In this document: positions 8,010-60,690 of the stretch, piece by piece
How the letters are laid out: each line of letters begins with the position of its first letter
Position numbering within the stretch: the first letter of the stretch is position 1
Made by a program: the position numbers and the translations under genes
The notes under the pieces: model-generated
Databases searched by the model: none
What the model was told of the DNA's origin: nothing
Seen by the model: only the letters and a program-made list of their open reading frames with translations
Source: Alphaproteobacteria bacterium
GTDB lineage: Bacteria; Pseudomonadota; Alphaproteobacteria; SP197
Direction: 5' to 3'
Length of the DNA stretch: 64,000 nucleotides
Assembly (NCBI GenBank): GCA_009694045.1
Contig: SHVY01000002.1
Coordinates: 39,491-103,490, forward strand

Positions 8010-8412
8010 GCCCTCCCGCGCGATGCCCGCACCCTAGCCAAACCGCTCGATTTGCGAAAGCGGGGGCCGAACCTATATACTTCAAGTGTCGGGCGGGAAA
8101 CCGGCCGACTATGGCGATAAACACTGCGTGGAATAAGCGGAGCGGACCCGGGGGCAGTACCCGGCGCCTCCACCATCACTCGATCTCGCGGCCCGGACGT
8201 TGGGCCGTGGGATGGGAAACCAAGGGGGCGAACCAGGATCGACGCACGCGGTAAAGGCGCAACTTTTGCCCGGTATGATTCCGCCGTTATCGGGTCGCAT
8301 CTACAAACGCCAATGATAATGAGGCGTTCGCTCTCGCTGCATAAGCGTTAGCGCGGTACGGGGGGCACCGGGCAACAGAAGCCCCCCAACGCTTTCTCGG
8401 GCGCAGGGTACC

Positions 8413-8904
8413 ATGGCCAAGGACGTGATCAGGTACGACCAGTTGATGCAGGACGCGATGCGGGGCGTCGTCGTCCAGGTTCTCAAGACCGCGGTGGCGG
8501 AAGGCCTTCCCGGCAAGCATCATTTTCTCATCAGCTTCCGCACCCATTATCCGGGCGTGGATGTGAGCGAGGATTTGCGGGGCCGCTACCCTCAGGATAT
8601 GACCATCGTCCTGCAGTACCAGTATTGGGACCTCAATGCCGACGACCATAAGTTCTGGGTGACGCTGAGTTTCAACAAGGTGCCGCGGCGGCTGGTGATC
8701 CCGTTCGCGGCCATCACCGGCTTCGCGGATCCCGAGGCGAAGTTCGATCTGCATTTCGCCCCGCGCGAGGTGGTTGAACCGCCGGCGAGGCCGGTCGGCC
8801 GCGTTGCCATGCCGGCCACGGCCATCGCTTCGGCGGCGCCGTCATCGGTGCCGCCGTCGGGCGATGGCAACGTCGTGCCGCTCGACACGTTCCGCCGCAA
8901 ATAG
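8413..8904 (+). CDS. SspB-like ClpXP adaptor (alphaproteobacterial stringent-starvation-protein-B family)
   Basis: Resembles SspB-alpha N-terminal domain (..VVVQVLKTAVAEGLPGKHHFLISFRTHYPGV..) with a disordered C-terminal tail. Confidence 0.5.
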   Translation: MAKDVIRYDQLMQDAMRGVVVQVLKTAVAEGLPGKHHFLISFRTHYPGVDVSEDLRGRYPQDMTIVLQYQYWDLNADDHKFWVTLSFNKVPRRLVIPFAAITGFADPEAKFDLHFAPREVVEPPARPVGRVAMPATAIASAAPSSVPPSGDGNVVPLDTFRRK

Positions 8905-43176: not shown

Positions 43177-44598
43177 TCAGCCCGCGCAGCGCGCCGGTTG
43201 GGGAGTCATGTCGATCAGCGCCGCCGCCACGCGCTCCAGGGCGATGCCGCGGCTGCCCTTGACCAACACCACATCGCCCGCCCGCACCTCCTCGAGCAGG
43301 GCCGGCAGGATCGCCTCGGCATCGGCCGCATGGCCGCCGCGCATGGCCTCGGGGAGCGCGTCGCGCAGATGGGCCATCAGACCGCCGACCGTGAAGACCA
43401 GGTCGATGTTCTTCGCCTTGGCGCAGGACGCGAAGCCGGCGTGCAGCCCGGGGGCGTCGTCGCCCAGCTCGAGCATGTCGCCGAGCACGGCGATGCGCCG
43501 TCCCTGCGTGCCCGGCACCGCCGCCGCCAGCACCTGCAGAGCAGCCTTCAGGGTCACGGGGCTACTGTTGTAGCTCTCGTCGATCACCGTCATGGCGCCG
43601 CAGCCGAGATAGACCCGATGCCGCTGCCCGCGTCCGGCCAAGGCCTCGACCTTGGCGAGCGATGCGGCCGCGCGCCCGAGGTCGGCGCCAAGCGCATGCA
43701 CGACCGCCAGCACCGCCAGGCTGTTGGCCACCCAGTGGCGCCCAGGAACGTTGAGCGATGCGTCGAGGGACCGCCGCCCCACCGCGGCCTTGACCCGACT
43801 CGTCTCCGCGCCGATCTCCGCCTGCACCAGGCGCACCGTGGAATCCGGATGGGCGCCGAAGCTCACGATGGTGCGCACGCCGCGCGCGCGCGCCGCCTGG
43901 GAAAGGTGGTGGTAGAAGGGATTGTCGTGGTTCAGCACGGCAACGCCGGCGGCGCTCATGCCATCGAACACTTCGGCCTTGGCGTCGGCGATGGCGCCGA
44001 TCGACGGGAAGTGTCCGAGGTGCACCGCCTCGACGGTGGTGATCAGGGCGACGTCGGGCCGCAGAAGTCGCGACAGCGGCGCGATCTCGCCGGCATGGTT
44101 CATGCCGACCTCGAAGACGCCGAACCGAGCGTCCGCGCCCATGCGCGCGAGACTCAGGGGCACGCCCCATTGGTTGTTGAAGCTCCGGACGCTGGCGGCG
44201 ACGGCGCCCTGGTCGCCCAGCACGATCCGCAGCGCTTCCTTCACTCCGGTCTTGCCGACGCTGCCGGTGACCGCGACGATCCGTGCCGTGGTGCGGGCCC
44301 GCGTCGCCCGGCCGAGCGCCACCAGCGCCTCGAGGGTGTCCGCCACCAACAGCAACGGCGCGTCGGCGGCGACCCCCGGCGGAACGCGATGGACGATCGC
44401 CGCGGCGGCACCGCGCGCCAGGGCGGCCGCCACGTAGTCGTGGCCGTCCTGCTTCGGCCCGGCCAGGGCAACGAACAGGTCGCCGCCCGCGACGCCGCGG
44501 CTGTCGATGGCGACGCCGGTCGCGGCCCAGCTCTGGGTGGTCGTGCCGCCGGTCGCGGCGCAGGCGTCGTCCGAGGTCCACAAGGAGTTGCGGTTCAT
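43177..44598 (-). CDS. murF: UDP-N-acetylmuramoyl-tripeptide--D-alanyl-D-alanine ligase
   Basis: [14 protein letters not shown] motif. ATGA overlap with the murE stop. Confidence 0.95.
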
Positions 44599-46028
44599 GA
44601 GGGTCCGCCTTTCAGTTGGACGGCGACGCCCTTCACCATGGCGACGTCGTCGAAGGGCAATGTCCTTTGGCCCACGATCTGCCCTTGCTCGTGGCCCTTG
44701 CCGGCGACGACGAGAACGTCGTTCGCCCGGAGTTCGTGCATGGCCTGGCGGATCGCCTCCGCCCGGTCGCCGATCTCGATGGCGCCCGGGGCGGCGGCGA
44801 GGATCGCCCGCCGGATTTCCGCCGCGTCCTCGGTGCGGGGGTTGTCGTCGGTGATCACCGATCGGTCCGCGAGCCGCGCGGCGATCGCGCCCATCAACGG
44901 CCGTTTCGCGCGGTCACGGTCGCCGCCGCAGCCGAACACGACATGGAGCCGGCTGCGCGTCATGGCGCGCGCCACGGCCAAGACGTTCGCCAAAGCGTCC
45001 GGGGTGTGGGCGTAGTCGACGTAGACTCGCGCGCCGTTGCCGAGCACGGCGGCCTCCTGCAGTCGCCCCGGCACGCCGACGAGGCCGGCCAAGGCCTCGA
45101 TCGCGTCGCCCGACGCCGTGCCCGTCGCCACGACGAGACCCGCGGCCGCCAAGGCGTTGGCCGCCTGGAACCCGCCGGCCAAGGGCAGACGCACCGTCCG
45201 CGTCATGCCGCCGGCGGCGATGTCGAGCACCTGCCCCCCCGGCTCCGAGCGCACGTCGACCAGCCTGAGGTCGGCCCCGGAGGCACCGAAGGTGATCGCC
45301 CGAAGTCCGCGTTTCCGGGCGATAGCCACCAGGTCCGCGCACTCCGGCACATCGGCGTTCAGGACCGCCGCCGCACCTCGGGGCAGCAACTCTTCGAACA
45401 GGCGAAACTTGGCTGCCCGGTACGCCTCGGGCGTGGGGTGATAGTCGTAGTGATCTTGGGTCAGGTTGGTGAACGCCGCCGCCGCCAGCCCGACCCCATC
45501 GAGGCGGAACTGATCCAACCCGTGGCTTGAGGCTTCCAGCGCGACGTGATCGACCCCGTGCTCCCGCAGCTCGGCCAGGGCCGCGTGCAGTCTAACAGGT
45601 TCCGGCGTGGTGTGCCCAAGGGGCCGGTCGGGTCCGTCGCCGACCACGCCAAGCGTGCCGAGGGACGCCGCCGCGTGCCCCACCAGCCGCCATAGCTGGC
45701 GGGTGAACCCCGCGACCGAGGTCTTGCCGTTGGTTCCCGTCACGGCGACGATCGTCCGCGGTTGCGGCGCATGGAACCGCGCGGCAATCAGCGCCAGGCG
45801 ACGGCGCGGGTTCGCGTCGGACAGCACCGGCACTCCGGCCTCGCCCAACCCGGCGGCGACGTCGGGTGAGGCAAGCACGGCGGCGGCACCGCGCGCGATG
45901 GCGTCGGCGACGAACCGGGCGCCGTCGACCTTGCCGCCCTTCAGGGCGGCGAACAGGAAGCCCGGCTTGACCGCGCGCGAATCCGGCGTCAGGCCGGATA
46001 TCTCGAGGTCGCCGGGCAGCCCGTGCAT
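44595..46028 (-). CDS. murE: UDP-N-acetylmuramoyl-L-alanyl-D-glutamate--2,6-diaminopimelate ligase
   Basis: VAVTGTNGKTS motif. GAGGAGG RBS before the ATG at 46028; the upstream 93 codons of the ORF are run-on. Confidence 0.95.
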   Translation of the reverse strand: MHGLPGDLEISGLTPDSRAVKPGFLFAALKGGKVDGARFVADAIARGAAAVLASPDVAAGLGEAGVPVLSDANPRRRLALIAARFHAPQPRTIVAVTGTNGKTSVAGFTRQLWRLVGHAAASLGTLGVVGDGPDRPLGHTTPEPVRLHAALAELREHGVDHVALEASSHGLDQFRLDGVGLAAAAFTNLTQDHYDYHPTPEAYRAAKFRLFEELLPRGAAAVLNADVPECADLVAIARKRGLRAITFGASGADLRLVDVRSEPGGQVLDIAAGGMTRTVRLPLAGGFQAANALAAAGLVVATGTASGDAIEALAGLVGVPGRLQEAAVLGNGARVYVDYAHTPDALANVLAVARAMTRSRLHVVFGCGGDRDRAKRPLMGAIAARLADRSVITDDNPRTEDAAEIRRAILAAAPGAIEIGDRAEAIRQAMHELRANDVLVVAGKGHEQGQIVGQRTLPFDDVAMVKGVAVQLKGGPS

Positions 46029-46041
46029 CGCCGCAGCCTCC

Positions 46042-47823
46042 TCAGGGAACAGCAGAGAGAGACGCAAGGGTCGATCCCACGACGGCGTGATCGCCGGGCA
46101 ACAAGGCCTCCGCCGCCTCGGTCGGATCGGTCGGATCGGAGGCGCGCGGCGCCATGCCCACCAGCGGACCGATGCGGTCGATGATGCGCGCCACGGTGGG
46201 GGCCGCCGTCCAGCCGCCGGTCGCGTAGCCGTAGGTCGCCTTCGTCCCCTTGGGCTCGTCCAAGGTGACCAGCACCACGTAGCGCGGGTCGTCCATGGGG
46301 AAGGCACCGATGAACGAGGACAGCAGAGCGTCCTTGCGGTATCCGGCGGCGCTCGCCTTTTCGGCGGTGCCGGTCTTGCCGCCGACCGCGTAGCCCGGAA
46401 CGTTCGCCGACTTGCCGGTGCCCGCCATGACCACGAGCCGCAGGAGGGCCCGCATCGCGTCCGACGTCGTGGACTTGATCACCGCCGTGCCTGGCGCCAC
46501 CGCGTCGGCGTCGCGCCGCAGCAGCGTCAGCGTTCTGAGGGTGCCGCCGTTCACCATGGCGGCGAAGGCCGTGACCGTCTGCAGCGGCGAGATGGCGAGG
46601 CCGTGACCGAAGGCCACGGTCATGGTCGTCAAATCGCCCCAGGTGGCGGGCACTATGGGCTCGCCCACCTCCGGCAGATCGAAGGCGGGCGGACGAAAGA
46701 AGCCGAGCTTCTTCAGGAACGACTTCTGACCTTCCGCGCCCACGTCCATCGCCATCTTCGCGGCGCCGATGTTCGAGGAATAGATGAAGATCTCCGGGAT
46801 CGACAGCCAGCGGCTCTTGGCATGGCTGTCGCTGATGGTGTAGCGCGCCACTCGGATCGGCTCGCTGGCGTCGTAGCCATCGACCAAGCCGACCTTGCCG
46901 CCGTCCAGCGCCATGGCGGTGGTGAACACCTTGAAAATCGACCCCATCTCGTAGACGCCCAGCGTCGCGCGGTTGAAGCGCGCTTCGTCCGGACCGGCCA
47001 TCGGATGGTTGGGGTCGAAATCCGGCAGGGAAGCGATCGCCAGGATCTCGCCGGTCTTCGGGTCCACGATCATGCCGGTGCCGCCGATCGCCCGGAACTC
47101 CGCCACGCTCTTCGCCAGCTCGTCGCGCAGCACCTGCTGCAAGCGGACGTCGAGGCTGAGGGTCAGCGGGCCCTCGCCCTCGATCGCGAGACGCCGCAGC
47201 TCGTCGTCGAACGCCTTCTCGATGCCGGCCAGGCCCTGGTTGTCCACGTCGGTGAAGCCGACGATGTGGGCGGCCAGCGCGCCCTGCGGATAGACCCGGC
47301 GCTGCTCGCGCTGGAACTGGATCCCCGGCAGGCCGAGGGCGTGAACCGCGCTCTCCTGGGCAGGCGACAACCCGCGCTTGATCCACGCGAAGGTGCCCTT
47401 GCCGGAGAGCTTGCGAAGCACCTCGTCCTGGTCGAGGCCTGGCAGGGCGCCCATCAGCGCCGCGACCGCCTCGTCCACATCCAGGATGCGCGCCGGGTTC
47501 GCGTAGAGCGACGCGGTCGGCAAGGTCGAGGCGAGCAGCACGCCATTGCGATCGACGATGTCGGCGCGCTCGAACGACGCGGCGTTGACCCCCGCCGAAC
47601 GGGCGGCGGTGTCGTCGCCCGGCGATCCGCCGACGGCGATTTCCGATGCCCTGAGCGCCAGCACGAGAAAGGCGAAGGCGAAGGCGGCGGCGGCCACGAC
47701 CAGACGACGGCGGCCCTGTTCGACCGCGCGCTTGGTATCGCCTTCGAGCCACAGGTCGGGCCGCGCCTGAATCCGCAAGGGGCTCCGCGGCGCGAACGCG
47801 TGCTGGAGATCAAGCTGCTTCAA
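46042..47823 (-). CDS. ftsI: Peptidoglycan D,D-transpeptidase FtsI (PBP3)
   Basis: TM segment, PBP dimerisation domain and transpeptidase domain (SxxK, SxN, KTG). The putative TTG start at 47823 overlaps the ftsL stop (TTGA); the start is uncertain. Confidence 0.85.
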   Translation of the reverse strand: MKQLDLQHAFAPRSPLRIQARPDLWLEGDTKRAVEQGRRRLVVAAAAFAFAFLVLALRASEIAVGGSPGDDTAARSAGVNAASFERADIVDRNGVLLASTLPTASLYANPARILDVDEAVAALMGALPGLDQDEVLRKLSGKGTFAWIKRGLSPAQESAVHALGLPGIQFQREQRRVYPQGALAAHIVGFTDVDNQGLAGIEKAFDDELRRLAIEGEGPLTLSLDVRLQQVLRDELAKSVAEFRAIGGTGMIVDPKTGEILAIASLPDFDPNHPMAGPDEARFNRATLGVYEMGSIFKVFTTAMALDGGKVGLVDGYDASEPIRVARYTISDSHAKSRWLSIPEIFIYSSNIGAAKMAMDVGAEGQKSFLKKLGFFRPPAFDLPEVGEPIVPATWGDLTTMTVAFGHGLAISPLQTVTAFAAMVNGGTLRTLTLLRRDADAVAPGTAVIKSTTSDAMRALLRLVVMAGTGKSANVPGYAVGGKTGTAEKASAAGYRKDALLSSFIGAFPMDDPRYVVLVTLDEPKGTKATYGYATGGWTAAPTVARIIDRIGPLVGMAPRASDPTDPTEAAEALLPGDHAVVGSTLASLSAVP

Positions 47824-48128
47824 CGGGTGAATCCTTCCGGTACGATCTCGGCGACCCGTATCGGAACCGCGTCGATGGTCATGATCTGCTGCGCCAACAT
47901 CGGCCCGGCCCCAAGCAGGCGCACCGCATCGGTGGTCAGACGCTCGGGCCTCGCCAGGTACGCCCATTCGGCGTGCAGGACGTGAATCGCCTGCTCGCTC
48001 GCGGCACGGATCGCGTTCAGTTCGGCGAGTTCCTGCTCGCGGAACTTGGCCTGGTAGGTGATCGGGAACAGCGCGAACGCCGACAGAGCAGCGAGCAGAA
48101 GCCAGAGCATGGTCCCGCGCGCGGTCAT
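47820..48128 (-). CDS. ftsL: Cell division protein FtsL-like small bitopic protein
   Basis: ~102 aa with a single TM ([15 protein letters not shown]) and a coiled-coil-like region. It sits in the canonical position between rsmH and ftsI. The ATG at 48128 overlaps the rsmH stop (ATGA). Confidence 0.65.
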
Positions 48129-49081
48129 GTCGCGACACTCCACGCCGGCTCGGCGGTGCGCACGGCGGCGCGCAGGCGGGCGGAACGGGCGCGTGGGTTG
48201 CGGGTGACCTCGGCCTCGCCGGGAGTAAGGGGCCGCCGGACCAGCGGCGCGAACGTCGGCGCGCGCCGCGCCACGGCGGGGGCGTGGCGGCTTGGCGCCG
48301 GCGCCTGGCCGCTCCGCTCCGCGAGAAACCGTTTGACGAGGCGATCCTCGAGCGAATGGAACGCGACCACCACCAGCCGTCCCCCAGCCACCAACAAGCG
48401 CTCGGCGGCATCGAGCGCGCGGCTGATCTCGCCCAGCTCATCGTTGACGAAGATTCGCAGGCCCTGGAACGTGCGGGTCGCCGGGTCGATCCCGTCGCCG
48501 CTCGCGCGCACCACGCCACGCACGATGCGGGCGAGTTCGCCGGTGCGCAGGATCGGCGACCCGCCGCGCGCGCGAACGATGGCGCGGGCGACGGCACGGG
48601 CGCGCCGCTCCTCGCCCAGGCGTCCGATGATGTCGGCGAGCTCGGCCTCGGCCGCGCCGTTCACCACGTCCGCGGCGCTCGGACCCTGGCACTCCATGCG
48701 CATGTCGAGGGGGCCGTCGAGCCGGAACGAGAACCCGCGCGCGGGGTCGTCGATCTGCGGCGAGGACACTCCGAGGTCGAGGGCGATGCCGTCCACCAGG
48801 TCGATCCCCGCGGCGGCCAGCAGCCGATCCATCGCGCCGAATCGCCCGGCCAGCAGGGTCAGTCGGCCAGGATAGGCTTGGGCGACGATCTCGCCCCGGG
48901 CGATGGCGGCGGGATCCCGATCGATCGCCCACACCCGGCAGCGCGCCGCGTCCAGAATCGCGCGGGTATAGCCGCCGGCCCCGAACGTCGCATCGACGTA
49001 GCGCCCGTCGTCATGGGGAACCAAGGTCGCCAGCGCCTCCGCCAGCAGCACGGGCACGTGCCCCGCGTCAGCGCCCGCCAT
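48125..49081 (-). CDS. rsmH: 16S rRNA (cytosine1402-N4)-methyltransferase
   Basis: [17 protein letters not shown] start; [14 protein letters not shown] motif. The ATG at 49081 lies within the last 14 nt of mraZ. Confidence 0.9.
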
Positions 49082-49526
49082 CCACCGGTCCCTTGAGCGA
49101 TAGTCCAAGCCGCGAACGCTCGGCGCGAAGCTGCTGGAACAGCCGCTCGCGATGCTGGGCGCCGGCCGCGGGCTCCCAGATCTGGAAGTACGGTCCGCGC
49201 CCCAGGAATGTTGCCTGATCGGTGATGCGGGCGTAGGCGATCAGATGGTCGGGCAGGATGATCCGGCCTTCGCCGTCGAACGGCACTTCCACCGCCTCGC
49301 TGAACAGGCCCGAGGCCAGATCGCTGCCGTCGCCGAACATGTCGACGATCGAATCGCTCATCCGAGTCATGGCTTGCCGGCCCAGGGCCTCGATCGCATC
49401 CACGCCGTCGCGGATCGAGCGCATCGCCACGATCCCCGGGAAGTTGTCATCGGCCAGGGCCGTGCGGAATGCCGCGGGCACGGAAACCCGGCCCTTGCGG
49501 TCCACTTTGTTGGTGAAAACCCCCAT
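49068..49526 (-). CDS. mraZ: Transcriptional regulator MraZ
   Basis: Internal ATG at 49526 giving [21 protein letters not shown] (first MraZ/SpoVT-AbrB repeat) followed by a second repeat. Confidence 0.85.
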
Positions 49527-49630
49527 GAAGGCGGCAGTCACGCGTCGTTCCCCCAGCTCTCGAATGCCCGAGCGATGCCGCTGGGCGACCCCTTGAAACC
49601 CCACGGCCATAGATAGCCGTTCCGGGCCTG

Positions 49631-49849: not shown

Positions 49850-50258
<409 letters not shown>

Positions 50259-53655: not shown

Positions 53656-55683
53656 ATGCCGGACAGAAGAACGGTCGCGATAGTCGGACCTTCGCTCGGC
53701 GGCAAGACCAGCCTCTTGGAGAGCATCGCCTTCGTCTCCAAGGCGATCCAGCGCAAGGGCAGCGTCCGCGAGGGGACCTCGATCGGCGACTTCTCGCCCG
53801 AGGCTCGGGCGCGCCAGGGCAGCATCGAGGTCTCGGCCGCCCACGTCGCCGCCAACGGGGTCGATTACACCCTGCTCGATTGCCCGGGCTCGATCGACTT
53901 CGCGTCCGAGACCTACCACGCCCTGATGGGCGTTGATGCCGCCCTCGTGGTGGTCGAGCCGGTGGCCGAGCGGGCGATGACCCTGGCGCCCCTGTTCCAC
54001 GTCCTCAACCAGTTCCAGGTCCCCCACCTCATCTTCATCAACAAGATGGACCGCGCCTCGGCGCTGCTGCGCGACGTGATCCCGGCGATGCAGGCGGTCT
54101 CCGGACGGCCGTTGGTCATGCACCAGGTGCCGATCCGCAGCGGCGAGAGCGTGACCGGCTACGTCGATCTGGTGAGCGAGCAAGCCTATGCCTACCGCCC
54201 CGGCGCGCCGTCGGACCAGATCGCCCTGCCCGAGGAGGTCAAGGAGCGCGAGACCACGGCCCGCACCGAGATGCTCGAGCGCCTCGCGGATTTCGACGAC
54301 GCGATCATGGAGAAGCTGCTCGAGGACCAGGCGCCGAGCCCCGAGGAGATCGAGGCCAGCATGTGCAAGGACGTGGCCGACAACCAGCTGGTGCCGGTCT
54401 TCGTCGGCTCGGCCGAACGCGACCACGGCGTCCGCCGCCTGCTCGCCCACATGGCCCAACTGGTGCCGACGGCGGCCGCCACCGCCGCCCGGCGCAAGCT
54501 TGGGGGCAACGGCGCGGGGATCGCCCAGGCGCTCAAGACCTACATGACCGGCCAGGGCGGCAAACTCACACTGGTCCGCGTCTGGCGCGGCGCCATCGGC
54601 GACGGCGACATGGTGAACGGCCAGCGCGTCGGCGGCGTCTACCGCCTGATGGGGGCGCAGCAGCAGAAGATCGATCGGGCCGAGGCCGGCGACGTGGTGG
54701 CCTTGGGTCGCCTGGATTCCACGCGCACCGGCGAAACCCTCGCGGTCGGGGACAAGGCGCCCGATGCGCCGCTTCCCCGGCCCGAGCCCATGGCCCCGAC
54801 CTTCGCCATGGCGATCCACGCCCAGAAGCGGGACGACGACGTGAAGCTGTCCGGCGCGCTCGCCAAACTGCTGGACGAGGATCCGTCACTCGCGGTCGAC
54901 CACGATCACCAGACCAACCAGCTCATCCTGCGCGGCCAGGGCGACATCCACCTGCACATCGCCTTCGAACGGCTGAAGAACCGCTACAAGCTGCCGGTGG
55001 TCGCCGAGCGGCCGAAGGTCCCGTACAAGGAGGCAATCCGCAAACCGGTCATCCAGCACGGTCGCTTCAAGCGGCAGACCGGCGGCCACGGCATGTTCGG
55101 CGACGTCCATCTGGAGATCAAGCCGCTGCCGCGCGGCGCCGGCTTCGAGTACGGCGATCGCGTGGTCGGCGGCTCGGTGCCGCGCCAGTTCATTCCGGCG
55201 GTCGAGAACGGGGTGCGCGAGTACCTGGTGAAGGGACCGTTGGGGTTCCCCGTGGTTGACCTCTCGGTGACCCTGTTCGACGGCTCCTACCACAACGTCG
55301 ACAGCAACGAGATGTCGTTCAAGCTGGCCGCCAAGATGGCGATGACCGAAGGCATGCCGAAGTGCGGGCCGGTCCTTCTGGAGCCGATCTGGCATGTCGA
55401 CGTCTCGGCGCCCAACGCGGCGACCGCCAAGATCAACGCCCTGGTCAGCGGCCGCCGCGGCCACATCCTCGGCCTCGAGGCCAAGGACGGCTGGGAGGGT
55501 TGGGACGTGGTCTCGGCCCAGCTGCCGCAGACCGAGCTCCACGATCTGATCCTCGAGCTGCGTTCGCTCAGCCAAGGGGTCGGCACCTACACCAGCCGCT
55601 TCGATCATCTGGCCGAGCTCACGGGCCGTCTCGCCGACCAGATCGTCCAGGCCCACGCCGAAACCGACGCGAAGGCATCCTGA
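53656..55683 (+). CDS. Elongation factor G-like GTPase (EF-G paralog with divergent G domain)
   Basis: P-loop GPSLGGKTS; EF-G domains II-V (..VYRLMGAQQQKI.., ..HNVDSNEMSFKLAAKMA..). GGGGAGGA RBS before the ATG at 53656. Confidence 0.8.
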   Translation: MPDRRTVAIVGPSLGGKTSLLESIAFVSKAIQRKGSVREGTSIGDFSPEARARQGSIEVSAAHVAANGVDYTLLDCPGSIDFASETYHALMGVDAALVVVEPVAERAMTLAPLFHVLNQFQVPHLIFINKMDRASALLRDVIPAMQAVSGRPLVMHQVPIRSGESVTGYVDLVSEQAYAYRPGAPSDQIALPEEVKERETTARTEMLERLADFDDAIMEKLLEDQAPSPEEIEASMCKDVADNQLVPVFVGSAERDHGVRRLLAHMAQLVPTAAATAARRKLGGNGAGIAQALKTYMTGQGGKLTLVRVWRGAIGDGDMVNGQRVGGVYRLMGAQQQKIDRAEAGDVVALGRLDSTRTGETLAVGDKAPDAPLPRPEPMAPTFAMAIHAQKRDDDVKLSGALAKLLDEDPSLAVDHDHQTNQLILRGQGDIHLHIAFERLKNRYKLPVVAERPKVPYKEAIRKPVIQHGRFKRQTGGHGMFGDVHLEIKPLPRGAGFEYGDRVVGGSVPRQFIPAVENGVREYLVKGPLGFPVVDLSVTLFDGSYHNVDSNEMSFKLAAKMAMTEGMPKCGPVLLEPIWHVDVSAPNAATAKINALVSGRRGHILGLEAKDGWEGWDVVSAQLPQTELHDLILELRSLSQGVGTYTSRFDHLAELTGRLADQIVQAHAETDAKAS

Positions 55684-55684
55684 C

Positions 55685-55972
55685 ATGACCGAGCAGCCCG
55701 TCGTCCAGATCAACCTGCCGAAACCGCCGAAGGAGGGCGGCGGCGCCTCCCTCGTCTACATTCTCTACCTCTTGAGCTTCGTCCTCGGCGTCACCTTCCT
55801 GATCGGCGTGGTGCTCGCCTATCTCAACCGCGGCGAGGCGCCGGACTGGGTCAAGACCCACTACCAGTTCCAGATCCGCACCTTCTGGATCGGCTTGCTC
55901 TATGGCGCGATCGGCTTCGTCCTGGTGGCGATCGTCGTCGGCATCCCCATCCTGATCGCCACCGCCGTCTAG
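55685..55972 (+). CDS. Small two-TM membrane protein (DUF4870-like) ending at an in-frame TAG; probable interrupted gene, with its conserved-looking tail continuing to 56053
   Basis: The ATG is 1 nt after the EF-G-like stop. After the TAG at 55970 the same frame reads LIVRCIKGLKLVNRGEPVPNPTTWLF, ending at the TGA at 56051-56053. Confidence 0.55.
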   Translation: MTEQPVVQINLPKPPKEGGGASLVYILYLLSFVLGVTFLIGVVLAYLNRGEAPDWVKTHYQFQIRTFWIGLLYGAIGFVLVAIVVGIPILIATAV

Positions 55973-56138
55973 CTCATCGTCCGCTGCATCAAGGGCCTCA
56001 AGCTCGTGAACCGCGGCGAACCCGTCCCCAACCCGACGACCTGGCTGTTCTGAGACGCACATATGCGTTTCCCCCGTTGTCGGAGGGAACGTTTTTGTTT
56101 CTCCCCCGCTCCTCGTGGCAGGGGGGAGGGGGAGGGGG

Positions 56139-59100
56139 ATGCGCGCCACCGCGTCACGCCAGGAAATCGAGGTCTCCGCCTGGCTCAATGACCTCGCGCT
56201 TGACCAGTACGCCACCGCGTTCGCCGCGAACGACATCGACCGCGCGACGCTGGCGACCCTGACCGACGCCGACCTCAAGGAGCTTGGCGTCGCCTCCCTG
56301 GGCCATCGCAAGAAGCTGCTCCAGGCGATCGCGTTGCTCGGGCCGCACCCCTCGCCGTCCGCCGCCAGCTATACGCCCCGCCATCTGGCCGAGCGCATCC
56401 TGGCCGCCCGCGACACCCTCGTGGGCGAACGCAAGGAAGTGACGGTCCTGTTCGCCGACGTGCAGGGCTCCCTTTCCCTCATCGAGGGCCTGGACCCGGA
56501 GCAGTCGGCCGCGCGTCTCGCCCCGGTGATCGAGGCGATGATGGCGGCCGTCCACCGCTTCGAGGGCACCGTCAACAAGGTTCAGGGCGATGGGATCATG
56601 GCGCTGTTCGGCGCCCCCGTGGCCCACGAGGACCACGCGATTCGCGCCGGCTATGCCGCCCTCGCCATGCGCGACGCGATCGCCGCCCAGGCGGAGCGAA
56701 CCCGGCGCGAGCACGGCTACGAGGTGCGCGCCCGTGTCGGCCTGCACTCGGGCGAGGTGGTCGTGCGCGGCATCGGCACCGACCTGAGCGTGGATTACGA
56801 CGCCATCGGCCCGACCGTGCATTTGGCGAACCGCCTGGAACAGCTCGCCCTACCCGGCACCATCCGGATCAGCGCCGCGACCCAGCGCCTGGCCGCCGGG
56901 TTTCTCGCCGTGGCACCCCTGGGGCCGGTCCCGGTCAAGGGCCTGAGCGAGCCCATCGAGATCTTCGATCTCCAGGGCGCCACCGGTGCCCGCAACCGGC
57001 TCCAGGCCCTGGGCGAACGCGGGCTCTCTCCCTTCGTCGGTCGCGCGGGCGAGGTCGCGATGCTCGAACACGCCCTCGACCGCGCCAAGGGGGGCGAAGG
57101 CCGGGTCGTGGGCCTGGTCGGCGAGCCCGGGGTCGGCAAGTCGCGCCTGGCTTTCGAGTTCGCGCGCTCGCCGGGCACCGCCGGCTGCCTTGTTCTCGCC
57201 GGGAGCTCGGTGTCCTACGGTCGGGCAACGTCCTGGCTGCCCGTGATCGACCTGCTGCGCGCATACTTCCGGATCGACGCCGGCGACGACGACGACGAGC
57301 GCGCGGTCCGCGAGAAGGTGATGGGCAAGGTCCTGGCCATCGATCAGTCGCTCGCGCGGGCCGCGCGCATCGTGCTCAGGTTGCTGAAGGTCACGGCGGA
57401 CTTCCCCGAGTGGGACGCGCTGGAGCCGCCGCAGCGCCGCCGTATGACCTTGGATGCGATCCGCGCCCTGCTGCTCGCCGCAGCCGCGATCCAACCGCTC
57501 GTCCTGATCTTCGAGGATCTGCATTGGGCCGACGGCGAGACGTTGGCGCTGCTCGACGGCCTGATCGGGGGCATCGCCACCCATCGGGTGATGCTGTTGG
57601 CGACGCTCCGACCGGAATTCGCCCATGACTGGGGCGGACGCAGCACCTATGCACAGGCCGGCTCGACCCGCTGCCGCCCCTCGGCATCGCGGACTTGCTG
57701 ACCGCGCTCCTGGGCAATGACGCGAGCCTCGGCTCACTCAAGGCCCGGCTCGCCGCCATGGCCGGCGGCAACCCGCTCCACGTCGAGGAAGGCGTGCGCG
57801 CGTTGATCGAACAGGGTTCACTCGTGGGCACGCCTGCCGCCTACCGGTTCATCGGCGACATCGCGAACCTCGCGATGCCGGATGGCGTGCGCGCCATCAT
57901 CGCCGCGCGCATCGATCGCCTGACGCCGGAGCGGAAGCAGCTCCTTCAGGCCGCCTCGGTCGTCGGCAGCGACGTGCCAGTCGATCAACTCGCAGCCATC
58001 GCCGACCTCGATCCGGACACCCTGAAAACGGCGCTCGCGGCGTTGCAGGCGGCTGAGTTCCTCTACGAGACGCGACTGTTCCCAGATCGCCACTTCGCCT
58101 TCAAGCACGCCTTCACCCACGACGTCGCCTACGGCGGCCTTCTCCGAGCACGCCGCCGCGATCTTCACGCCCGGCTCGGCGCCGCGATCGAGGAGTCCCA
58201 AGGTGCCGGTGCCGAGGTTGAGGCCCTCGCCGGCCATTTCGAGCGCGGCGAAGTCTGGGACAAGGCCGCCCGCTACTGGCTCGCGGCAGCCGATCAGGCG
58301 AGGGGACGCTATGCGTATGCGCGCGCACTCGACGTCGGCAAGAAAGCCCTCGCCTGTGCGCAACACCCCACAAGCGACCCCGGTATCAAGCAGTCGATTC
58401 TAACGACCCTAGGCGATTTGGCGGGGTTGTATGGCGACTTCAATGACGCCAATGCTTGGTACGAGCAGGCTCTTCGCGTGCCCTGCTCGGAGGACGCTCG
58501 TCGGTCGATCGACAATCGGGTCCATCGACCATACTTCGCCGGGCCTGACGATGCGCGCGTCGCGTACCACACGCACGGATCGGGAGACGAGTGGGTGATC
58601 GTCTTCTGCCCAAGCCTCTATGAAGTTCGTATTTCCCAGCCGCTGCTCGAGTTGATGTGTCAAACGGTACAGGGTTGTCACGGTTCACCCGCGTGGCGAC
58701 GGACCCTCCGATCCGGCACCGGAGCCTTACACGTTGGCCGAGCAGGCCGCTGACTTCCGGCGGGTAATCGAGAAACTGGGATCTGGTTCCAAGACCGCGA
58801 TCGGGATCTCGCGCGGCGGCACTTTGGCTCTCATCTTGGCTCGAGATCATCCGGGCCTTCTGGATCGAATCGCGCTGGTCGGGACTCCCGTGGACGACTT
58901 GGTGAGCCCAGGATGCCTCTACCCGCGCCCCGACGCGCTATCCGAGAAAACCCTTCAAGCCGTCGAGGACGGAGATTTTCAAACCGCCGCGTCGATTGCC
59001 TCGCACAGTGTTTTCTCGGAGGACGGCTATTTCGATTTCGCCGAGAACTCCATTCGCATATGGCTGGCGCACGGGGAAGCCACGGCTCGCCGTTTGTTGA

Positions 59101-59369
59101 TAGGCTTCCATGGTCCGAACCCGGAATTGGACATCAAGCCATGGTTGGGAACGGTGCGAATACCCACGCTCGTGACACACGGCGTCAATGACCGGCGCGC
59201 CCCGTACGCGGTGTCGAAATACATAGCCAACCAGATTCCTGGGGCGTTGCACTTTGGCTTTCCCGGGCGCGGACACGAGCCGCTCTTCACGGCGCCGGCT
59301 GAATTCCTCGCCGTCCTTGACCAATTCATCAAGACCGGCACCGTGCCGTCCCCTACCCGATCAGGATGA
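56139..59369 (+). pseudogene. Large multi-domain signalling gene (SAM, class III adenylate/guanylate cyclase, AAA/STAND ATPase, TPR), running on without a stop into an alpha/beta-hydrolase domain; disrupted by two +1 frameshifts
   Basis: SAM region WLNDLALDQYATAFAANDID..LKELGVASLGHRKKL; cyclase region KEVTVLFADVQGS..FEGTVNKVQGDGIMALFGAP; AAA region GLVGEPGVGKSRL. Shift 1 at ~57651-57665: ..GGRSTYAQ / RLDPLPPLGIADLLTALLGNDASL..GGNPLHVEE. Shift 2 at ~58653-58661: ..SQPLLELM / KRYRVVTVHPRGDG...GISRGG nucleophile elbow. The ATG at 56139 follows a G-rich RBS. Confidence 0.55.
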
Positions 59370-60690
59370 ACACCCGGGTGTTGCCGCGGACCACGCTGAG
59401 GCTCATGCGGCTGGAGTTCTGGCGGGCAATGTCGAGCAGGGCTTCCGGCGTCGCCACCGGCTCGCGGTTGACGGCGACGATCACGTCGCCCGGCCGCAGG
59501 CCCGCCCGCGCCGCCGGGCTGCCCGGCACCACGTCGGACACCAGCACGCCGCCCTCGCCGTCCTCGTCCGGGGGCAGGGCCTGGAAGCTCGCGCCGGCCA
59601 GGAGCGGCACGGTCGCCGCCGTCGTGGCCGCGGACGCCGGCGCCGCCGCTTCGTGCTCGATCGTCGCCATCACCGTGCGCGGCACGCCGTCGCGCACCAC
59701 GTCGAGCGCCATGGAATCGCCCACCCGCAGCAGCCCGACCTTGTTCCGGAGGTCGAAGCTGCCGTCCACGGCCCGGCCGTTGGCGCCGATCACCAGATCG
59801 CCCGGCTGCAAACCCGCCTGGTCCGCCGGCGACCCCGGCTTGACCGCCACCACCAGGGCGCCCGCGGTCGAGGCGAGGCCCAACCCTTGCGCCAGGTCCG
59901 GCGTCAGATCCTGGGTGCGCACCCCAAGCTGGCCGCGATCGATCGAGCCGTGCAGGGCGATCTGTTCGGCGATCCCGCGCACCATGGTGACGGGGATGGC
60001 GAAGCCGATGCCGATCGAGCCGCCGCGGCCGAGGATCGCCGTGTTGATGCCGACCAGCTCGCCCGCCATGTTCACCAGCGCTCCGCCCGAGTTGCCGGGG
60101 TTGATCGAGGCGTCGGTCTGGATGAAGTCCTCGTAAACCTCGAGCCCGAGGCCCCGCCCCAGCGCGCTGACGATCCCGAGCGTCACGGTCTGGCCGATGC
60201 CGAACGGATTGCCGATCGCCAGCACGAAGTCGCCGACCTCCAGCGCGTCCGAATCGCCGATCGGAATCGCCGTCAAACCCTCGGCCGGGATGCGCAGGAC
60301 GGCGATGTCGGTTTCCGGATCGGTTCCGACCAGCTCGGCGGCGAAGCTGCGCTGGTCGCGGAGCGTGATACGGATCACGTCGGCGCCGTTGATGACGTGA
60401 TGGTTGGTGACGATCAGCCCTTGGTCCGCGTCGATGATGACGCCGGAGCCGGCGCTCGTCACCTCGCGGCTGCCGCCGTCGTCGGGCAGGCCGAAGAAGT
60501 TGCGGAAGAACGGGTCGGCGAACAGGGGATTGGCTGGATCGGCGATCGTCGCCTTGACCGCGACGTTGACCACGGCGGGGGTCACCTGCTTGATCATCGG
60601 CGCAAGGCTGGGCAGCGGCGCGGTCGCGGCCCCCGCCACGCCCGCCCATCCGACCACCGCCACCACGAGCCAAGCGCCCATTCGCCGCAT
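59353..60690 (-). CDS. degP: Periplasmic serine endoprotease DegP/HtrA (trypsin domain plus two PDZ domains)
   Basis: HHVINGAD..D..GNSGGAL catalytic triad context; two PDZ domains. Signal peptide from the ATG at 60690; alternatives at 60681 and 60705. Confidence 0.9.
   Translation of the reverse strand: MRRMGAWLVVAVVGWAGVAGAATAPLPSLAPMIKQVTPAVVNVAVKATIADPANPLFADPFFRNFFGLPDDGGSREVTSAGSGVIIDADQGLIVTNHHVINGADVIRITLRDQRSFAAELVGTDPETDIAVLRIPAEGLTAIPIGDSDALEVGDFVLAIGNPFGIGQTVTLGIVSALGRGLGLEVYEDFIQTDASINPGNSGGALVNMAGELVGINTAILGRGGSIGIGFAIPVTMVRGIAEQIALHGSIDRGQLGVRTQDLTPDLAQGLGLASTAGALVVAVKPGSPADQAGLQPGDLVIGANGRAVDGSFDLRNKVGLLRVGDSMALDVVRDGVPRTVMATIEHEAAAPASAATTAATVPLLAGASFQALPPDEDGEGGVLVSDVVPGSPAARAGLRPGDVIVAVNREPVATPEALLDIARQNSSRMSLSVVRGNTRVFILIG

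What the first reader, a model, noticed from the sequence alone, without database searches (positions are those of the whole stretch)
56139..59369. Multi-domain SAM-cyclase-STAND-ATPase-TPR gene fused to an alpha/beta hydrolase, broken by two +1 frameshifts
From the ATG at 56139 the gene encodes a SAM domain, a class III nucleotidyl cyclase domain and an AAA_16/STAND P-loop (GEPGVGKSRL). At ~57651-57665 the conserved continuation RLDPLPPLGIADLLTALLGNDASL...AGGNPLHVEE is found only in the +1 frame, where ORF 57695..58753 begins at TTG. That frame carries the TPR/helical region and, with no intervening stop, the N-terminus of an alpha/beta hydrolase (VAYHTHGSGDEWVIVF). A second +1 shift at ~58653-58661 (LLELM / KRYRVVTVHPRGDG) leads to the GISRGG nucleophile elbow in ORF 58734..59369. 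If intact, this would be a >1000-aa cyclase-STAND-TPR-hydrolase signalling protein, which is an unusual domain combination.
Basis: partly seen in the sequence, partly recalled or inferred. Interest (0 to 1): 0.6.

Follow-up and report, generated by a model that had tools for sequence, protein, structure and literature searches.

The report
Frameshift-broken cyclase–STAND–hydrolase signalling gene
This is a recently inactivated copy, in an uncultured Lake Baikal alphaproteobacterium, of a large one-piece signalling gene (SAM, nucleotide cyclase, STAND ATPase, alpha/beta hydrolase) that is intact and fairly common in other bacteria, so the breakage is ordinary gene decay although the gene family itself has not been studied.

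Summary
The three ORFs and their domains are real. They are the pieces of one 1076-aa gene. With two single-base corrections it aligns without gaps to intact 1077- and 1068-aa homologs at 70% and 69% identity. It also aligns to more than 100 other intact SAM (or zinc-ribbon)–cyclase–AAA_16–alpha/beta-hydrolase proteins from several phyla.

The shifts are not two +1 events. Site 1 is a one-base deletion (an A lost between 57659 and 57660). Site 2 is a one-base insertion within TGT-CAA-A-CGG (58658-58667). The third ORF is therefore back in the frame of the first.

The window comes from a Lake Baikal MAG.
- An independent assembly of the 1250 m library is identical to the window.
- The 1350 m library, and a further ENA-deposited assembly of undetermined library, lack the site-1 deletion and encode an 871-aa product.
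- Every assembly carries site 2.

Both lesions are therefore real mutations. Site 2 is shared by all assemblies and site 1 is polymorphic. The out-of-frame hydrolase remnant shows no extra decay, so the lesions are recent. Neighbouring genes are intact.

The domain combination is unstudied but not rare. Interest is low to moderate.

The parts
56139..57659 (+). 5' segment of the broken gene (phase 0, ATG 56139 preceded by a G-rich Shine-Dalgarno-like run). It holds SAM (about 56169-56333), the class III cyclase (about 56430-56966) and the STAND nucleotide-binding domain (AAA_16, about 57030-57578). Key motifs: metal Asp in LFADVQG 56448-56468 and VQGDGIM 56580-56600, TVHLANR 56814-56834, Walker A GEPGVGKS 57120-57143, Walker B IFEDLHW 57507-57527.
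   Evidence: NCBI annotates this as MSP81538.1, 520 aa.
57659..57660 (+). Site 1: a single A is missing between these two bases. The intact allele reads CAG GCC AGG CTC = Q A R L; the window reads CAGGCC-GGCTC. This allele is polymorphic between Lake Baikal samples.
   Evidence: L021 has the A; L020 and the window lack it. (871-aa product P0122 in SRR8561391 and ENA ERZ1305449)..
57699..57701 (+). Premature TGA that ends the phase-0 reading 14 codons after site 1 in the window allele.
57662..58663 (+). Middle segment (phase 2). It holds the STAND helical and winged-helix domains (GGNPLHVEE 57764-57790), a short TPR-like helical arm, and the first strands of the alpha/beta hydrolase (from about 58547; ARVAYHTHG 58553-58579, VIVFCPS).
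   Evidence: Domain limits were taken from the AlphaFold model of homolog P0128. NCBI annotates this as MSP81539.1, 352 aa, hypothetical.
58661..58667 (+). Site 2: one extra base in TGT CAA A CGG TAC, where intact homologs have one codon (C-Q-V/G-Y/F). It is present in every assembly of this population.
   Evidence: One search shows a separate 159-aa call downstream in all three contigs.
58751..58753 (+). TGA that ends the phase-2 reading 29 codons after site 2. This is the stop of the 871-aa product in the site-1-intact allele.
58665..59369 (+). 3' segment (back in phase 0): the remaining four fifths of the alpha/beta hydrolase domain. The catalytic triad is intact: Ser in GISRGG 58803-58820, Asp in NDRR 59187-59198, His in GRGHEP 59265-59282. 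The stop is TGA 59367-59369, which overlaps the 3' end of the convergent htrA/degP gene (59353..60690, minus strand) by 17 nt.
   Evidence: NCBI annotates this as MSP81540.1, 211 aa.

Best explanation
Window 56139-59369 is a single ancestral gene of 1076 codons. It encodes SAM domain, class III nucleotide cyclase, STAND (AAA_16) ATPase with winged helix, a short TPR-like arm, and a C-terminal Ser-Asp-His alpha/beta hydrolase. In this Lake Baikal alphaproteobacterial population it has been inactivated by two real point indels.

The first event was a 1-nt insertion at 58661-58667. It is shared by all available assemblies. It cuts the hydrolase off after its first strands and leaves an 871-aa SAM-cyclase-STAND-arm protein. 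The second event, seen in the 1250 m sample and in the MAG the window comes from, was a 1-nt deletion at 57659/57660. It truncates the protein inside the STAND module at 520 aa. Both lesions are recent, because the out-of-frame parts are as well conserved as the in-frame parts.

For the intact family the most likely working model is inferred, not shown. The STAND ATPase acts as a ligand-gated oligomerisation switch that brings cyclase domains together into active dimers, helped by the SAM domain. The C-terminal hydrolase sits where STAND proteins carry their sensor and serves as the input module, binding or turning over a small ester- or lactone-type ligand.
For: One gene:
- The corrected protein is colinear and gap-free with intact homologs across both sites.
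- The best hits are 1077 aa at 70% identity and 99% coverage, and 1068 aa at 69%.
- About 110 listed clusters, and full-length ORFs in isolate and MAG genomes, share the architecture.

Real mutations:
- The window is identical over 4996 bp to an independent Logan assembly of SRR8561390.
- SRR8561391 differs only by one SNP (56214) and by having the A at site 1.
- The ENA contig ERZ1305449 also encodes the 871-aa form.
- Site 2 is present in all of these assemblies.
- The two runs are separate libraries from 1250 m and 1350 m (PMC7678222).
- Neither site lies in a long homopolymer.
- Nine neighbouring genes give full-length Pfam matches with no frame breaks.

Recent lesions:
- Identity to P0128 is 0.70 after site 2, against 0.63-0.82 elsewhere.
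- After site 2 the window keeps 40 of 44 family near-invariant residues, against 39 of 44 for intact P0128.
- The triad Ser, Asp and His are intact.

Family mechanism:
- The metal-binding Asp pair, the Arg, the Walker A Lys, the Walker B Asp and the hydrolase Ser/His are invariant or nearly so in 101 sequences.
- The AlphaFold model (pLDDT 87) puts the hydrolase directly after a TPR-like arm of only seven helices.
- The nearest solved relatives of the hydrolase include the receptor-hydrolases KAI2/HTL/D14 and RsbQ, as well as enol-lactonase, esterases and an AHL-degrading esterase.

Precedent: related cyclase-ATPase-TPR-LuxR 'mclx' genes of M. tuberculosis are often pseudogenised by frameshift indels (PMC4452763).
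Against: - No read-level data could be inspected, so allele frequencies within each sample are unknown.
- The sequence is a MAG consensus.
- The lack of any decay in the out-of-frame parts is also what an artefact would look like.
- No intact allele of this same species was found, so 'shared by all assemblies' rests on two libraries from one lake.
- The sensor role of the hydrolase is untested. A conserved catalytic triad fits an enzyme or effector equally well.
- The canonical transition-state Asn of class III cyclases is His in the whole family, so the cyclase activity and product are unverified.
Confidence: 0.85

Rival explanations
1. Domain loss, not death. The 871-aa SAM-cyclase-STAND-arm protein left by site 2 is the working product of this lineage. 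Most relatives of this superfamily have no hydrolase. The window allele (site 1) is then a later null allele. It may have been selected because a STAND protein that has lost its C-terminal sensor tends to be deregulated.
For: - The 871-aa form is what two of the assemblies encode.
- Many homologs are cyclase-AAA_16-TPR proteins without a hydrolase.
- The 5' 2.5 kb keeps high GC3 (0.86-0.92) and 86-94% of family near-invariant residues.
- From general knowledge of STAND proteins (MalT, APAF-1, NLRs), removing the sensor domain commonly gives signal-independent activity.
Against: - The 871-aa product ends in about 50 residues of orphan hydrolase strands plus 29 out-of-frame residues, which is a poor C-terminus.
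- The hydrolase remnant is not yet decayed, so there has been no time to show selection for the truncated form.
- A second inactivating hit in the same gene in a sister population is the usual pattern of a gene that is no longer needed.
Confidence: 0.25
2. Sequencing or assembly artefact. The gene is intact in the cells and one or both indels are errors of the MAG consensus.
For: - The source is a metagenome-assembled genome.
- The out-of-frame segments look perfectly conserved.
- Site 1 is absent from another sample.
- Reads could not be examined.
Against: - Site 2 recurs in two separate libraries (SRR8561390 and SRR8561391, 1250 and 1350 m) and in at least three assemblies made with different pipelines.
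- Site 1 is reproduced by two independent assemblies of the same library and is linked to a SNP 1.4 kb away. It therefore marks a haplotype, not a random error.
- The sites are a lone A and a 2-to-3 A run, not error-prone homopolymers.
- All nine neighbouring genes checked, across about 17.5 kb of flanking sequence, are unbroken.
Confidence: 0.07
3. Programmed recoding. Ribosomes shift -1 at site 1 and +1 at site 2 to make the full-length protein.
For: The two shifts have opposite signs, so the last segment returns to the first frame. All three segments are well conserved.
Against: - There is no X XXY YYZ heptamer at site 1.
- There is no stop or rare-codon +1 motif, and no long homopolymer for transcriptional slippage, at site 2.
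- All homologs examined across the two sites encode the region in one frame.
- The sister population simply has the missing base at site 1.
- A stop codon follows site 1 after 14 codons.
Confidence: 0.02

Closest known systems
Mycobacterium tuberculosis Rv0386 / Rv1358 / Rv2488c ('mclx' cyclase-ATPase-TPR-LuxR proteins)
   Same: Both have an N-terminal class III cyclase followed by an AAA_16/STAND ATPase and a helical TPR-like region. The mclx genes are also repeatedly found split by frameshift indels in natural strains (PMC4452763; family survey PMC2447327).
   Different: The mycobacterial proteins end in a LuxR helix-turn-helix and have no SAM domain. The window gene and its family end in a Ser-Asp-His alpha/beta hydrolase and start with SAM, a double zinc ribbon or an OmpR-type winged helix.
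LipJ (Rv1900c) and other alpha/beta-hydrolase–cyclase two-domain proteins (PDB 1YBT/1YBU, 3MR7)
   Same: They combine an alpha/beta hydrolase and a class III cyclase in one polypeptide. Weak sequence matches were seen.
   Different: The order is reversed, with the hydrolase N-terminal. There is no STAND ATPase, no SAM domain and no TPR arm. The NCBIfam LipJ model scores 59 bits against a cut-off of 800.
TOMM system kinase/cyclase fusion protein (NCBIfam TIGR03903)
   Same: This is the best NCBIfam match. It covers the cyclase, AAA_16 and helical region (residues 97-758 of P0128).
   Different: The score is 265 bits against a cut-off of 705. There is no kinase domain here, no hydrolase there, and no TOMM gene neighbourhood.
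Alpha/beta-hydrolase receptors and lactone hydrolases (plant KAI2/HTL/D14, Bacillus RsbQ, PcaD 3-oxoadipate enol-lactonase, Est816 AHL-degrading esterase)
   Same: These are among the nearest solved or curated relatives of the C-terminal domain by sequence profile and by fold (E 1e-24 to 1e-15, TM about 0.8). All share the Ser-Asp-His triad and a helical lid.
   Different: Identity is only about 20-27% and all scores fall below family cut-offs (PcaD 76 bits against 256). The HG oxyanion motif after strand 3 is replaced by (N/S/C)-P in this family. Those proteins are stand-alone, not fused to a STAND switch.
MalT-type bacterial STAND regulators
   Same: Both have a P-loop NOD with Walker A and B, helical and winged-helix domains, then a C-terminal helical-repeat sensor arm.
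   Different: The effector here is a cyclase, not a DNA-binding domain. The repeat arm is reduced to about seven helices and capped by a hydrolase. No membership test against MalT itself was run.

Membership tests
Class III nucleotidyl cyclase (Pfam PF00211) | Domain match above the curated threshold | tested here: met
   Guanylate_cyc scores 79.7 bits against a cut-off of 21.9. The nearest solved structures are Cya2, CyaB and CyaC.
Class III nucleotidyl cyclase (Pfam PF00211) | Two metal-binding Asp and the transition-state Arg | tested here: met
   D in LFADVQG, D in VQGDGIM and R in HLANR are present in the window. All three are invariant in 101 family members.
Class III nucleotidyl cyclase (Pfam PF00211) | Transition-state Asn (the N of the usual V-N-x-A-x-R motif) | tested here: not met
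   The window has TVHLANR. His occupies this column in 100 of 101 family members. CyaB and Cya2 have Asn there (alignment). The effect on activity is unknown.
Class III nucleotidyl cyclase (Pfam PF00211) | Lys/Asp pair specifying ATP | tested here: inconclusive
   The window has K (NKVQGD), aligned to the Lys of CyaB, and D (DYDAIG). The Lys column is K/R/Q across the family (46/28/27), so the product may differ between members. No assay was possible.
STAND P-loop NTPase (AAA_16) | Walker A, Walker B, then helical and winged-helix domains and a C-terminal sensor region | tested here: met
   AAA_16 scores 79.8 bits against a cut-off of 32.6. GEPGVGKS and IFEDLHW are present and invariant in the family. 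The helical/winged-helix domains and the arm are seen in the model of P0128 and align to the window's middle segment. In the window allele the module is cut at site 1.
Alpha/beta hydrolase fold | Domain match plus the Ser-Asp-His triad with a G-x-S-x-G elbow | tested here: met
   Abhydrolase_1 scores 53 bits against a cut-off of 25.8 on the 3' ORF alone. GISRGG, NDRR and GRGHEP are present. Ser and His are invariant and Asp is present in 100 of 101 sequences.
Alpha/beta hydrolase fold | Uninterrupted reading frame through the whole domain in this genome | tested here: not met
   A one-base insertion at 58661-58667 separates strands 1-3 from the rest in every assembly of this population.
Intact SAM-cyclase-STAND-hydrolase fusion family (unnamed; NCBI 'alpha/beta fold hydrolase', JGI 'class 3 adenylate cyclase/pimeloyl-ACP methyl ester carboxylesterase') | Colinear full-length homology over all domains | tested here: met
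   The corrected window protein matches P0128 and P0129 at 70% and 69% identity with 99% coverage. There is no gap at either site. It keeps 86-94% of near-invariant columns in every segment.
Programmed ribosomal frameshift / transcriptional slippage gene | Slippery motif at the shift site and conservation of the shift in homologs | tested here: not met
   No heptamer, stop-codon motif or long homopolymer is present. The aligned homologs are in one frame across both sites. The sister population lacks the site-1 lesion.
mclx (Mycobacterium cyclase/LuxR-like) family | C-terminal LuxR-type HTH after cyclase-ATPase-TPR | tested here: not met
   No HTH or LuxR Pfam match was found in any of the three ORFs or in seven full-length homologs. 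The C-terminus is a hydrolase.
TOMM kinase/cyclase fusion (TIGR03903), LipJ (NF058673), PcaD (TIGR02427) | Score above NCBIfam's curated cut-off | tested here: not met
   Scores were 265 against 705, 59 against 800, and 76 against 256 bits for the intact homolog P0128.
Anti-phage defence system (PADLOC models, e.g. Pycsar) | Match beyond generic cyclase-domain similarity, with partner effector genes nearby | tested here: not met
   Only PycC cyclase-domain similarity was found (77 bits over residues 91-253). The neighbourhoods of the window, L022 and L024 share no genes and are housekeeping or metabolic.

The most novel reading that the evidence does not exclude
The intact family may be a so far undescribed type of bacterial receptor. 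In it a catalytic alpha/beta hydrolase, of the KAI2/D14/RsbQ/enol-lactonase kind, would be the ligand-sensing module of a STAND ATPase switch that controls cyclic-nucleotide synthesis. The Lake Baikal alleles would then capture two steps: loss of the sensor (site 2), followed by a second-site knock-out of the resulting deregulated cyclase (site 1).
Probability: 0.15. Interest if true: 0.6.

Novelty: new variant of a known kind. Interest (0 to 1): 0.28.

Why it matters
For the window itself the result is mostly housekeeping. Three NCBI protein records (MSP81538.1, MSP81539.1, MSP81540.1) are fragments of one pseudogene and should not be counted as a cyclase, a hypothetical protein and a hydrolase.

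The two alleles from 1250 m and 1350 m give a small, clean example of stepwise gene loss in a natural deep-lake population.

The wider point is that a cyclase-STAND protein capped by a catalytic-triad alpha/beta hydrolase exists intact in many soil and water bacteria, including the cultured Bradyrhizobium erythrophlei GAS478. I could not find it described in the searchable literature. If the hydrolase is the sensor, this would link small-molecule ester or lactone perception to cAMP signalling through a STAND switch. That can be tested with an intact homolog, not with this broken copy.

Tried and rejected
- Source genome and syntenic orthologs. I looked in the GTDB species representatives with a hydrolase-domain profile. 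This gave 19 loci at 23-41% identity. The source genome was absent and no syntenic ortholog was found.
- JGI metagenome contigs. A scan with the corrected C-terminal protein found only two distant hydrolases at 24% identity.
- First protein search. Using only the C-terminal 569 aa gave 45% as the best identity and wrongly suggested that the fusion was rare. The full-length query found the 70% relatives and the large family. The window's own proteins were not returned by either search, so the absence of self-hits carries no information.
- Synteny. The 70% homologs sit among unrelated genes, so orthology by context could not be shown.
- GC3 drop. GC3 falls from 0.91 to about 0.70 toward the 3' end. 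I considered this as a sign of decay or foreign origin and set it aside. The drop starts upstream of site 2 and a milder version occurs in the intact homologs L022 and L024.
- Promoter and terminator scan of 55600-59600 found nothing.
- Literature. Searches for the architecture found no paper on it. A search on the run accessions identified the Lake Baikal origin.
- Fold search. A Foldseek search of the whole model against the PDB returned only single-domain hits, with no whole-architecture precedent.
- Defence-system reading. I rejected this on the PADLOC result and the gene neighbourhoods.
- Other broken family members. Frame breaks seen in L002, L004, L008, L013 and L017 were not interpreted. 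The contig and isolate names of L004, L008, L013 and L017 suggest long-read MAGs, where indel errors would be common. I did not verify this.
Full report
**What is in the sequence**

On the + strand there are three consecutive ORFs: 56115/56139..57701, 57695..58753 and 58734..59369. Pfam finds SAM_1/SAM_2, Guanylate_cyc and AAA_16 in the first. It finds nothing in the second. In the third it finds an alpha/beta hydrolase that begins only at profile position 53, so it is N-terminally incomplete.

The codon phase (position mod 3) is 0 for the first ORF, 2 for the second and 0 again for the third. The two shifts therefore have opposite signs, -1 then +1. They are not two +1 shifts as the finding's title says. 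A GC3 frame plot follows the same switches.

**One gene or three**

I joined the three readings at the points suggested by homology, which gives a 1076-aa protein. A first search with only the C-terminal 569 aa found colinear proteins that carry cyclase, AAA_16 and hydrolase together at 40-45% identity.

A search with the full corrected protein found much closer intact relatives:
- P0128: 1077 aa, 70% identity, 99% coverage, from an alphaproteobacterial MAG.
- P0129: 1068 aa, 69% identity.
- About 110 further clusters of 1040-1130 aa, with SAM or a double zinc ribbon at the N-terminus followed by cyclase, AAA_16 and hydrolase.

A scan of one genome per species found the same fusion as full-length single ORFs in Rokubacteria, Alphaproteobacteria, an Acidimicrobiaceae MAG and the cultured Bradyrhizobium erythrophlei GAS478. 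Hydrolase-domain matches also occur in SAR324, Acidobacteriota and Entotheonella contigs. One member has an OmpR-type winged helix at the N-terminus.

The corrected window protein aligns with P0128 and P0129 with no gap at either junction. At the DNA level the homologs have exactly one codon where the window has two bases (site 1) or four bases (site 2). The hydrolase is therefore truly fused, and the window carries one gene broken twice.

**Are the breaks real**

An exact-sequence look-up of the small neighbouring gene (55685-55972) found three other assemblies of the same region. Cluster look-ups identify the window as a MAG named 'Alphaproteobacteria bacterium'. NCBI annotates its three pieces as MSP81538.1 (520 aa), MSP81539.1 (352 aa) and MSP81540.1 (211 aa).
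- The Logan assembly of run SRR8561390 (L020) is identical to the window over 4996 bp.
- The assembly of SRR8561391 (L021) differs at only two places. It has an A-to-G SNP at 56214 and an extra A after 57659, which restores CAG GCC AGG CTC = Q-A-R-L.
- That allele encodes an 871-aa protein. The same protein is on a 54.5-kb ENA contig.
- All of these assemblies carry the extra base at site 2 and call a separate small gene downstream.
- The two runs are separate libraries from 1250 m and 1350 m in Lake Baikal (PMC7678222).

Neither lesion sits in a long homopolymer. Site 1 is the loss of a lone A. Site 2 lies in CAA-A-CGG. Nine neighbouring genes all give full-length domain matches with no frame breaks: murE, ftsI, rsmH, mraZ, an ABC-F ATPase, a DjlA-like protein, an EF-G paralog, htrA/degP and an AmpG-like transporter.

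Together this argues strongly for real mutations. Site 2 is shared by the population. Site 1 marks one haplotype. Read pile-ups could not be inspected, which is the main remaining gap.

**Age of the lesions**

The segment after site 2 is 70% identical to P0128, no lower than the other segments (0.63-0.82). It retains 40 of 44 residues that are at least 90% conserved in the family. Intact P0128 itself retains 39 of 44. The catalytic Ser, Asp and His codons are intact. There is thus no detectable drift since the frame was lost, and the lesions are recent.

GC3 falls from about 0.9 to 0.7 toward the 3' end. The fall begins upstream of site 2 and is seen more weakly in the intact homologs, so I do not read it as decay.

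**Programmed recoding**

There is no slippery heptamer at site 1. At site 2 there is no +1 motif and no long homopolymer. The homologs I aligned across the two sites are in-frame there. The sister population simply has the missing base at site 1. I consider recoding excluded for practical purposes.

**What the intact protein is and how it probably works**

I aligned 101 full-length members and tallied key columns.
- Invariant: both metal-binding Asp, the transition-state Arg, the Walker A Lys, and the hydrolase Ser and His.
- Nearly invariant (100 of 101): the Walker B Asp and the hydrolase Asp.
- Two departures from textbook motifs are family-wide. His replaces the cyclase transition-state Asn. 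(N/S/C)-P replaces the hydrolase HG oxyanion motif.
- The purine-specifying Lys column is K/R/Q. The window has K, paired with the Asp.

An AlphaFold model of P0128 (pLDDT 87, pTM 0.65) shows these parts:

| Part | Residues |
|---|---|
| SAM bundle | 1-62 |
| Disordered linker | 64-82 |
| Cyclase | 84-285 |
| Nucleotide-binding domain | 300-510 |
| Helical and winged-helix domains | 515-667 |
| TPR-like arm (only about seven helices) | 671-795 |
| Lidded alpha/beta hydrolase | 798-1067 |

By fold the cyclase resembles CyaC, CyaB and Cya2, and the hydrolase resembles generic esterases, C-C hydrolases and an AHL-degrading esterase. By sequence profile its nearest solved relatives also include the receptor-hydrolases KAI2/HTL/D14 and RsbQ. 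The best NCBIfam hydrolase model is PcaD enol-lactonase, far below its cut-off.

From established behaviour of STAND proteins and class III cyclases, which are active only as dimers, I infer the following. Nucleotide-dependent oligomerisation of the STAND module, helped by the SAM domain, assembles active cyclase dimers. The hydrolase occupies the usual sensor position and gates this, either by binding or by turning over a small ester or lactone. The domain order and residue conservation are shown. The gating role is inference.

**Consequences in this genome**

In the 1350 m allele the product is SAM-cyclase-STAND-arm with a stub of hydrolase. In the window allele it stops inside the STAND module after 520 aa. 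The downstream pieces lack plausible independent function. The 211-aa ORF lacks the first four strands, and the 159-aa call lacks the nucleophile.

The simplest reading is a gene on its way out. A less likely reading, which I keep as a rival, is that the sensor-less 871-aa protein was active or deregulated and that site 1 is a secondary knock-out.

**Comparison with what is known**

- The closest described relatives are the M. tuberculosis cyclase-ATPase-TPR-LuxR proteins Rv0386, Rv1358 and Rv2488c. They share the cyclase-STAND core and, notably, the habit of being split by frameshift indels in natural strains (PMC4452763). They end in a DNA-binding domain, not a hydrolase.
- LipJ-type proteins join a hydrolase and a cyclase, but in the opposite order and without a STAND module.
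- No NCBIfam model reaches its cut-off.
- PADLOC shows only generic cyclase similarity.
- The gene neighbourhoods of the window, L022 and L024 have nothing in common.
- Full-text searches found no paper on this architecture.

**Verdict**

The interpretation of a single fused gene is supported. The locus itself is an ordinary, recently frameshifted pseudogene, with a neat two-allele series between two depths of one lake. The family it belongs to is a common but unstudied variant of the cyclase-STAND signalling proteins. Interest is low to moderate, 0.28.

Noticed in passing
window 56214 (and L021 position 1096): The only substitution between the 1250 m and 1350 m assemblies over about 3.7 kb is A/G at 56214 (Thr/Ala in the SAM domain, YATAF versus YAAAF). 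It is linked to the presence or absence of the site-1 deletion, so there are two haplotypes.
   Followed up: partly
window 8049-8435 (+): A two-piece (permuted) alphaproteobacterial tmRNA gene. Rfam alpha_tmRNA scores 225 bits, and ARAGORN reads the tag peptide as ANDNEAFALAA.
   Followed up: no
window 49851-50254 (-): A bacterial RNase P class A RNA gene (281 bits). It lies just after the mraZ end of the cell-division (dcw) gene cluster.
   Followed up: no
window 44595-49610 (-): An intact dcw cluster segment: mraZ, rsmH, a small ftsL-like ORF, ftsI and murE. It was used here only as a control showing that nearby genes are unbroken.
   Followed up: partly
window 53656-55972 (+): An EF-G paralog (675 aa, all five EF-G domains) is followed immediately by a 95-aa predicted membrane protein whose start lies 2 nt after the EF-G stop. 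This pair sits directly upstream of the broken gene. The 95-aa protein has no Pfam match on record.
   Followed up: no
window 59353-59369: The stop of the hydrolase reading frame and the 3' end of the convergent htrA/degP gene overlap by 17 nt. No terminator-like hairpin was detected between them.
   Followed up: partly
L002 8004-10903; L004 7737-10906; L008 7728-10969; L013 7957-10912; L017 9734-10913: Other members of the same fusion family in public MAGs also appear split between reading frames, by tblastn with the corrected window protein. The contig and isolate names of four of them suggest long-read assemblies, where indel errors would be likely; I did not verify this. It is unclear how many of these breaks are real.
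   Followed up: partly
proteins P0006 (after about residue 860) and P0010 (after about residue 905): Two metagenomic family members lose all similarity part-way through the hydrolase domain and continue as Arg/Pro/Ser-rich sequence. This looks like frameshifted reading in those assemblies too.
   Followed up: no
family alignment A3, column of window TVHLANR (56814-56834): The canonical transition-state Asn of class III cyclases is His in 100 of 101 members of this family, and the purine-specifying Lys column is K/R/Q. The catalytic competence and the nucleotide product of the whole family are therefore open questions.
   Followed up: partly
L016 7454-10909: One family member (1152 aa, alphaproteobacterial MAG) carries an OmpR-type Trans_reg_C winged-helix DNA-binding domain in place of SAM at the N-terminus. 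The N-terminal module is therefore exchangeable: SAM, double zinc ribbon or DNA-binding.
   Followed up: no
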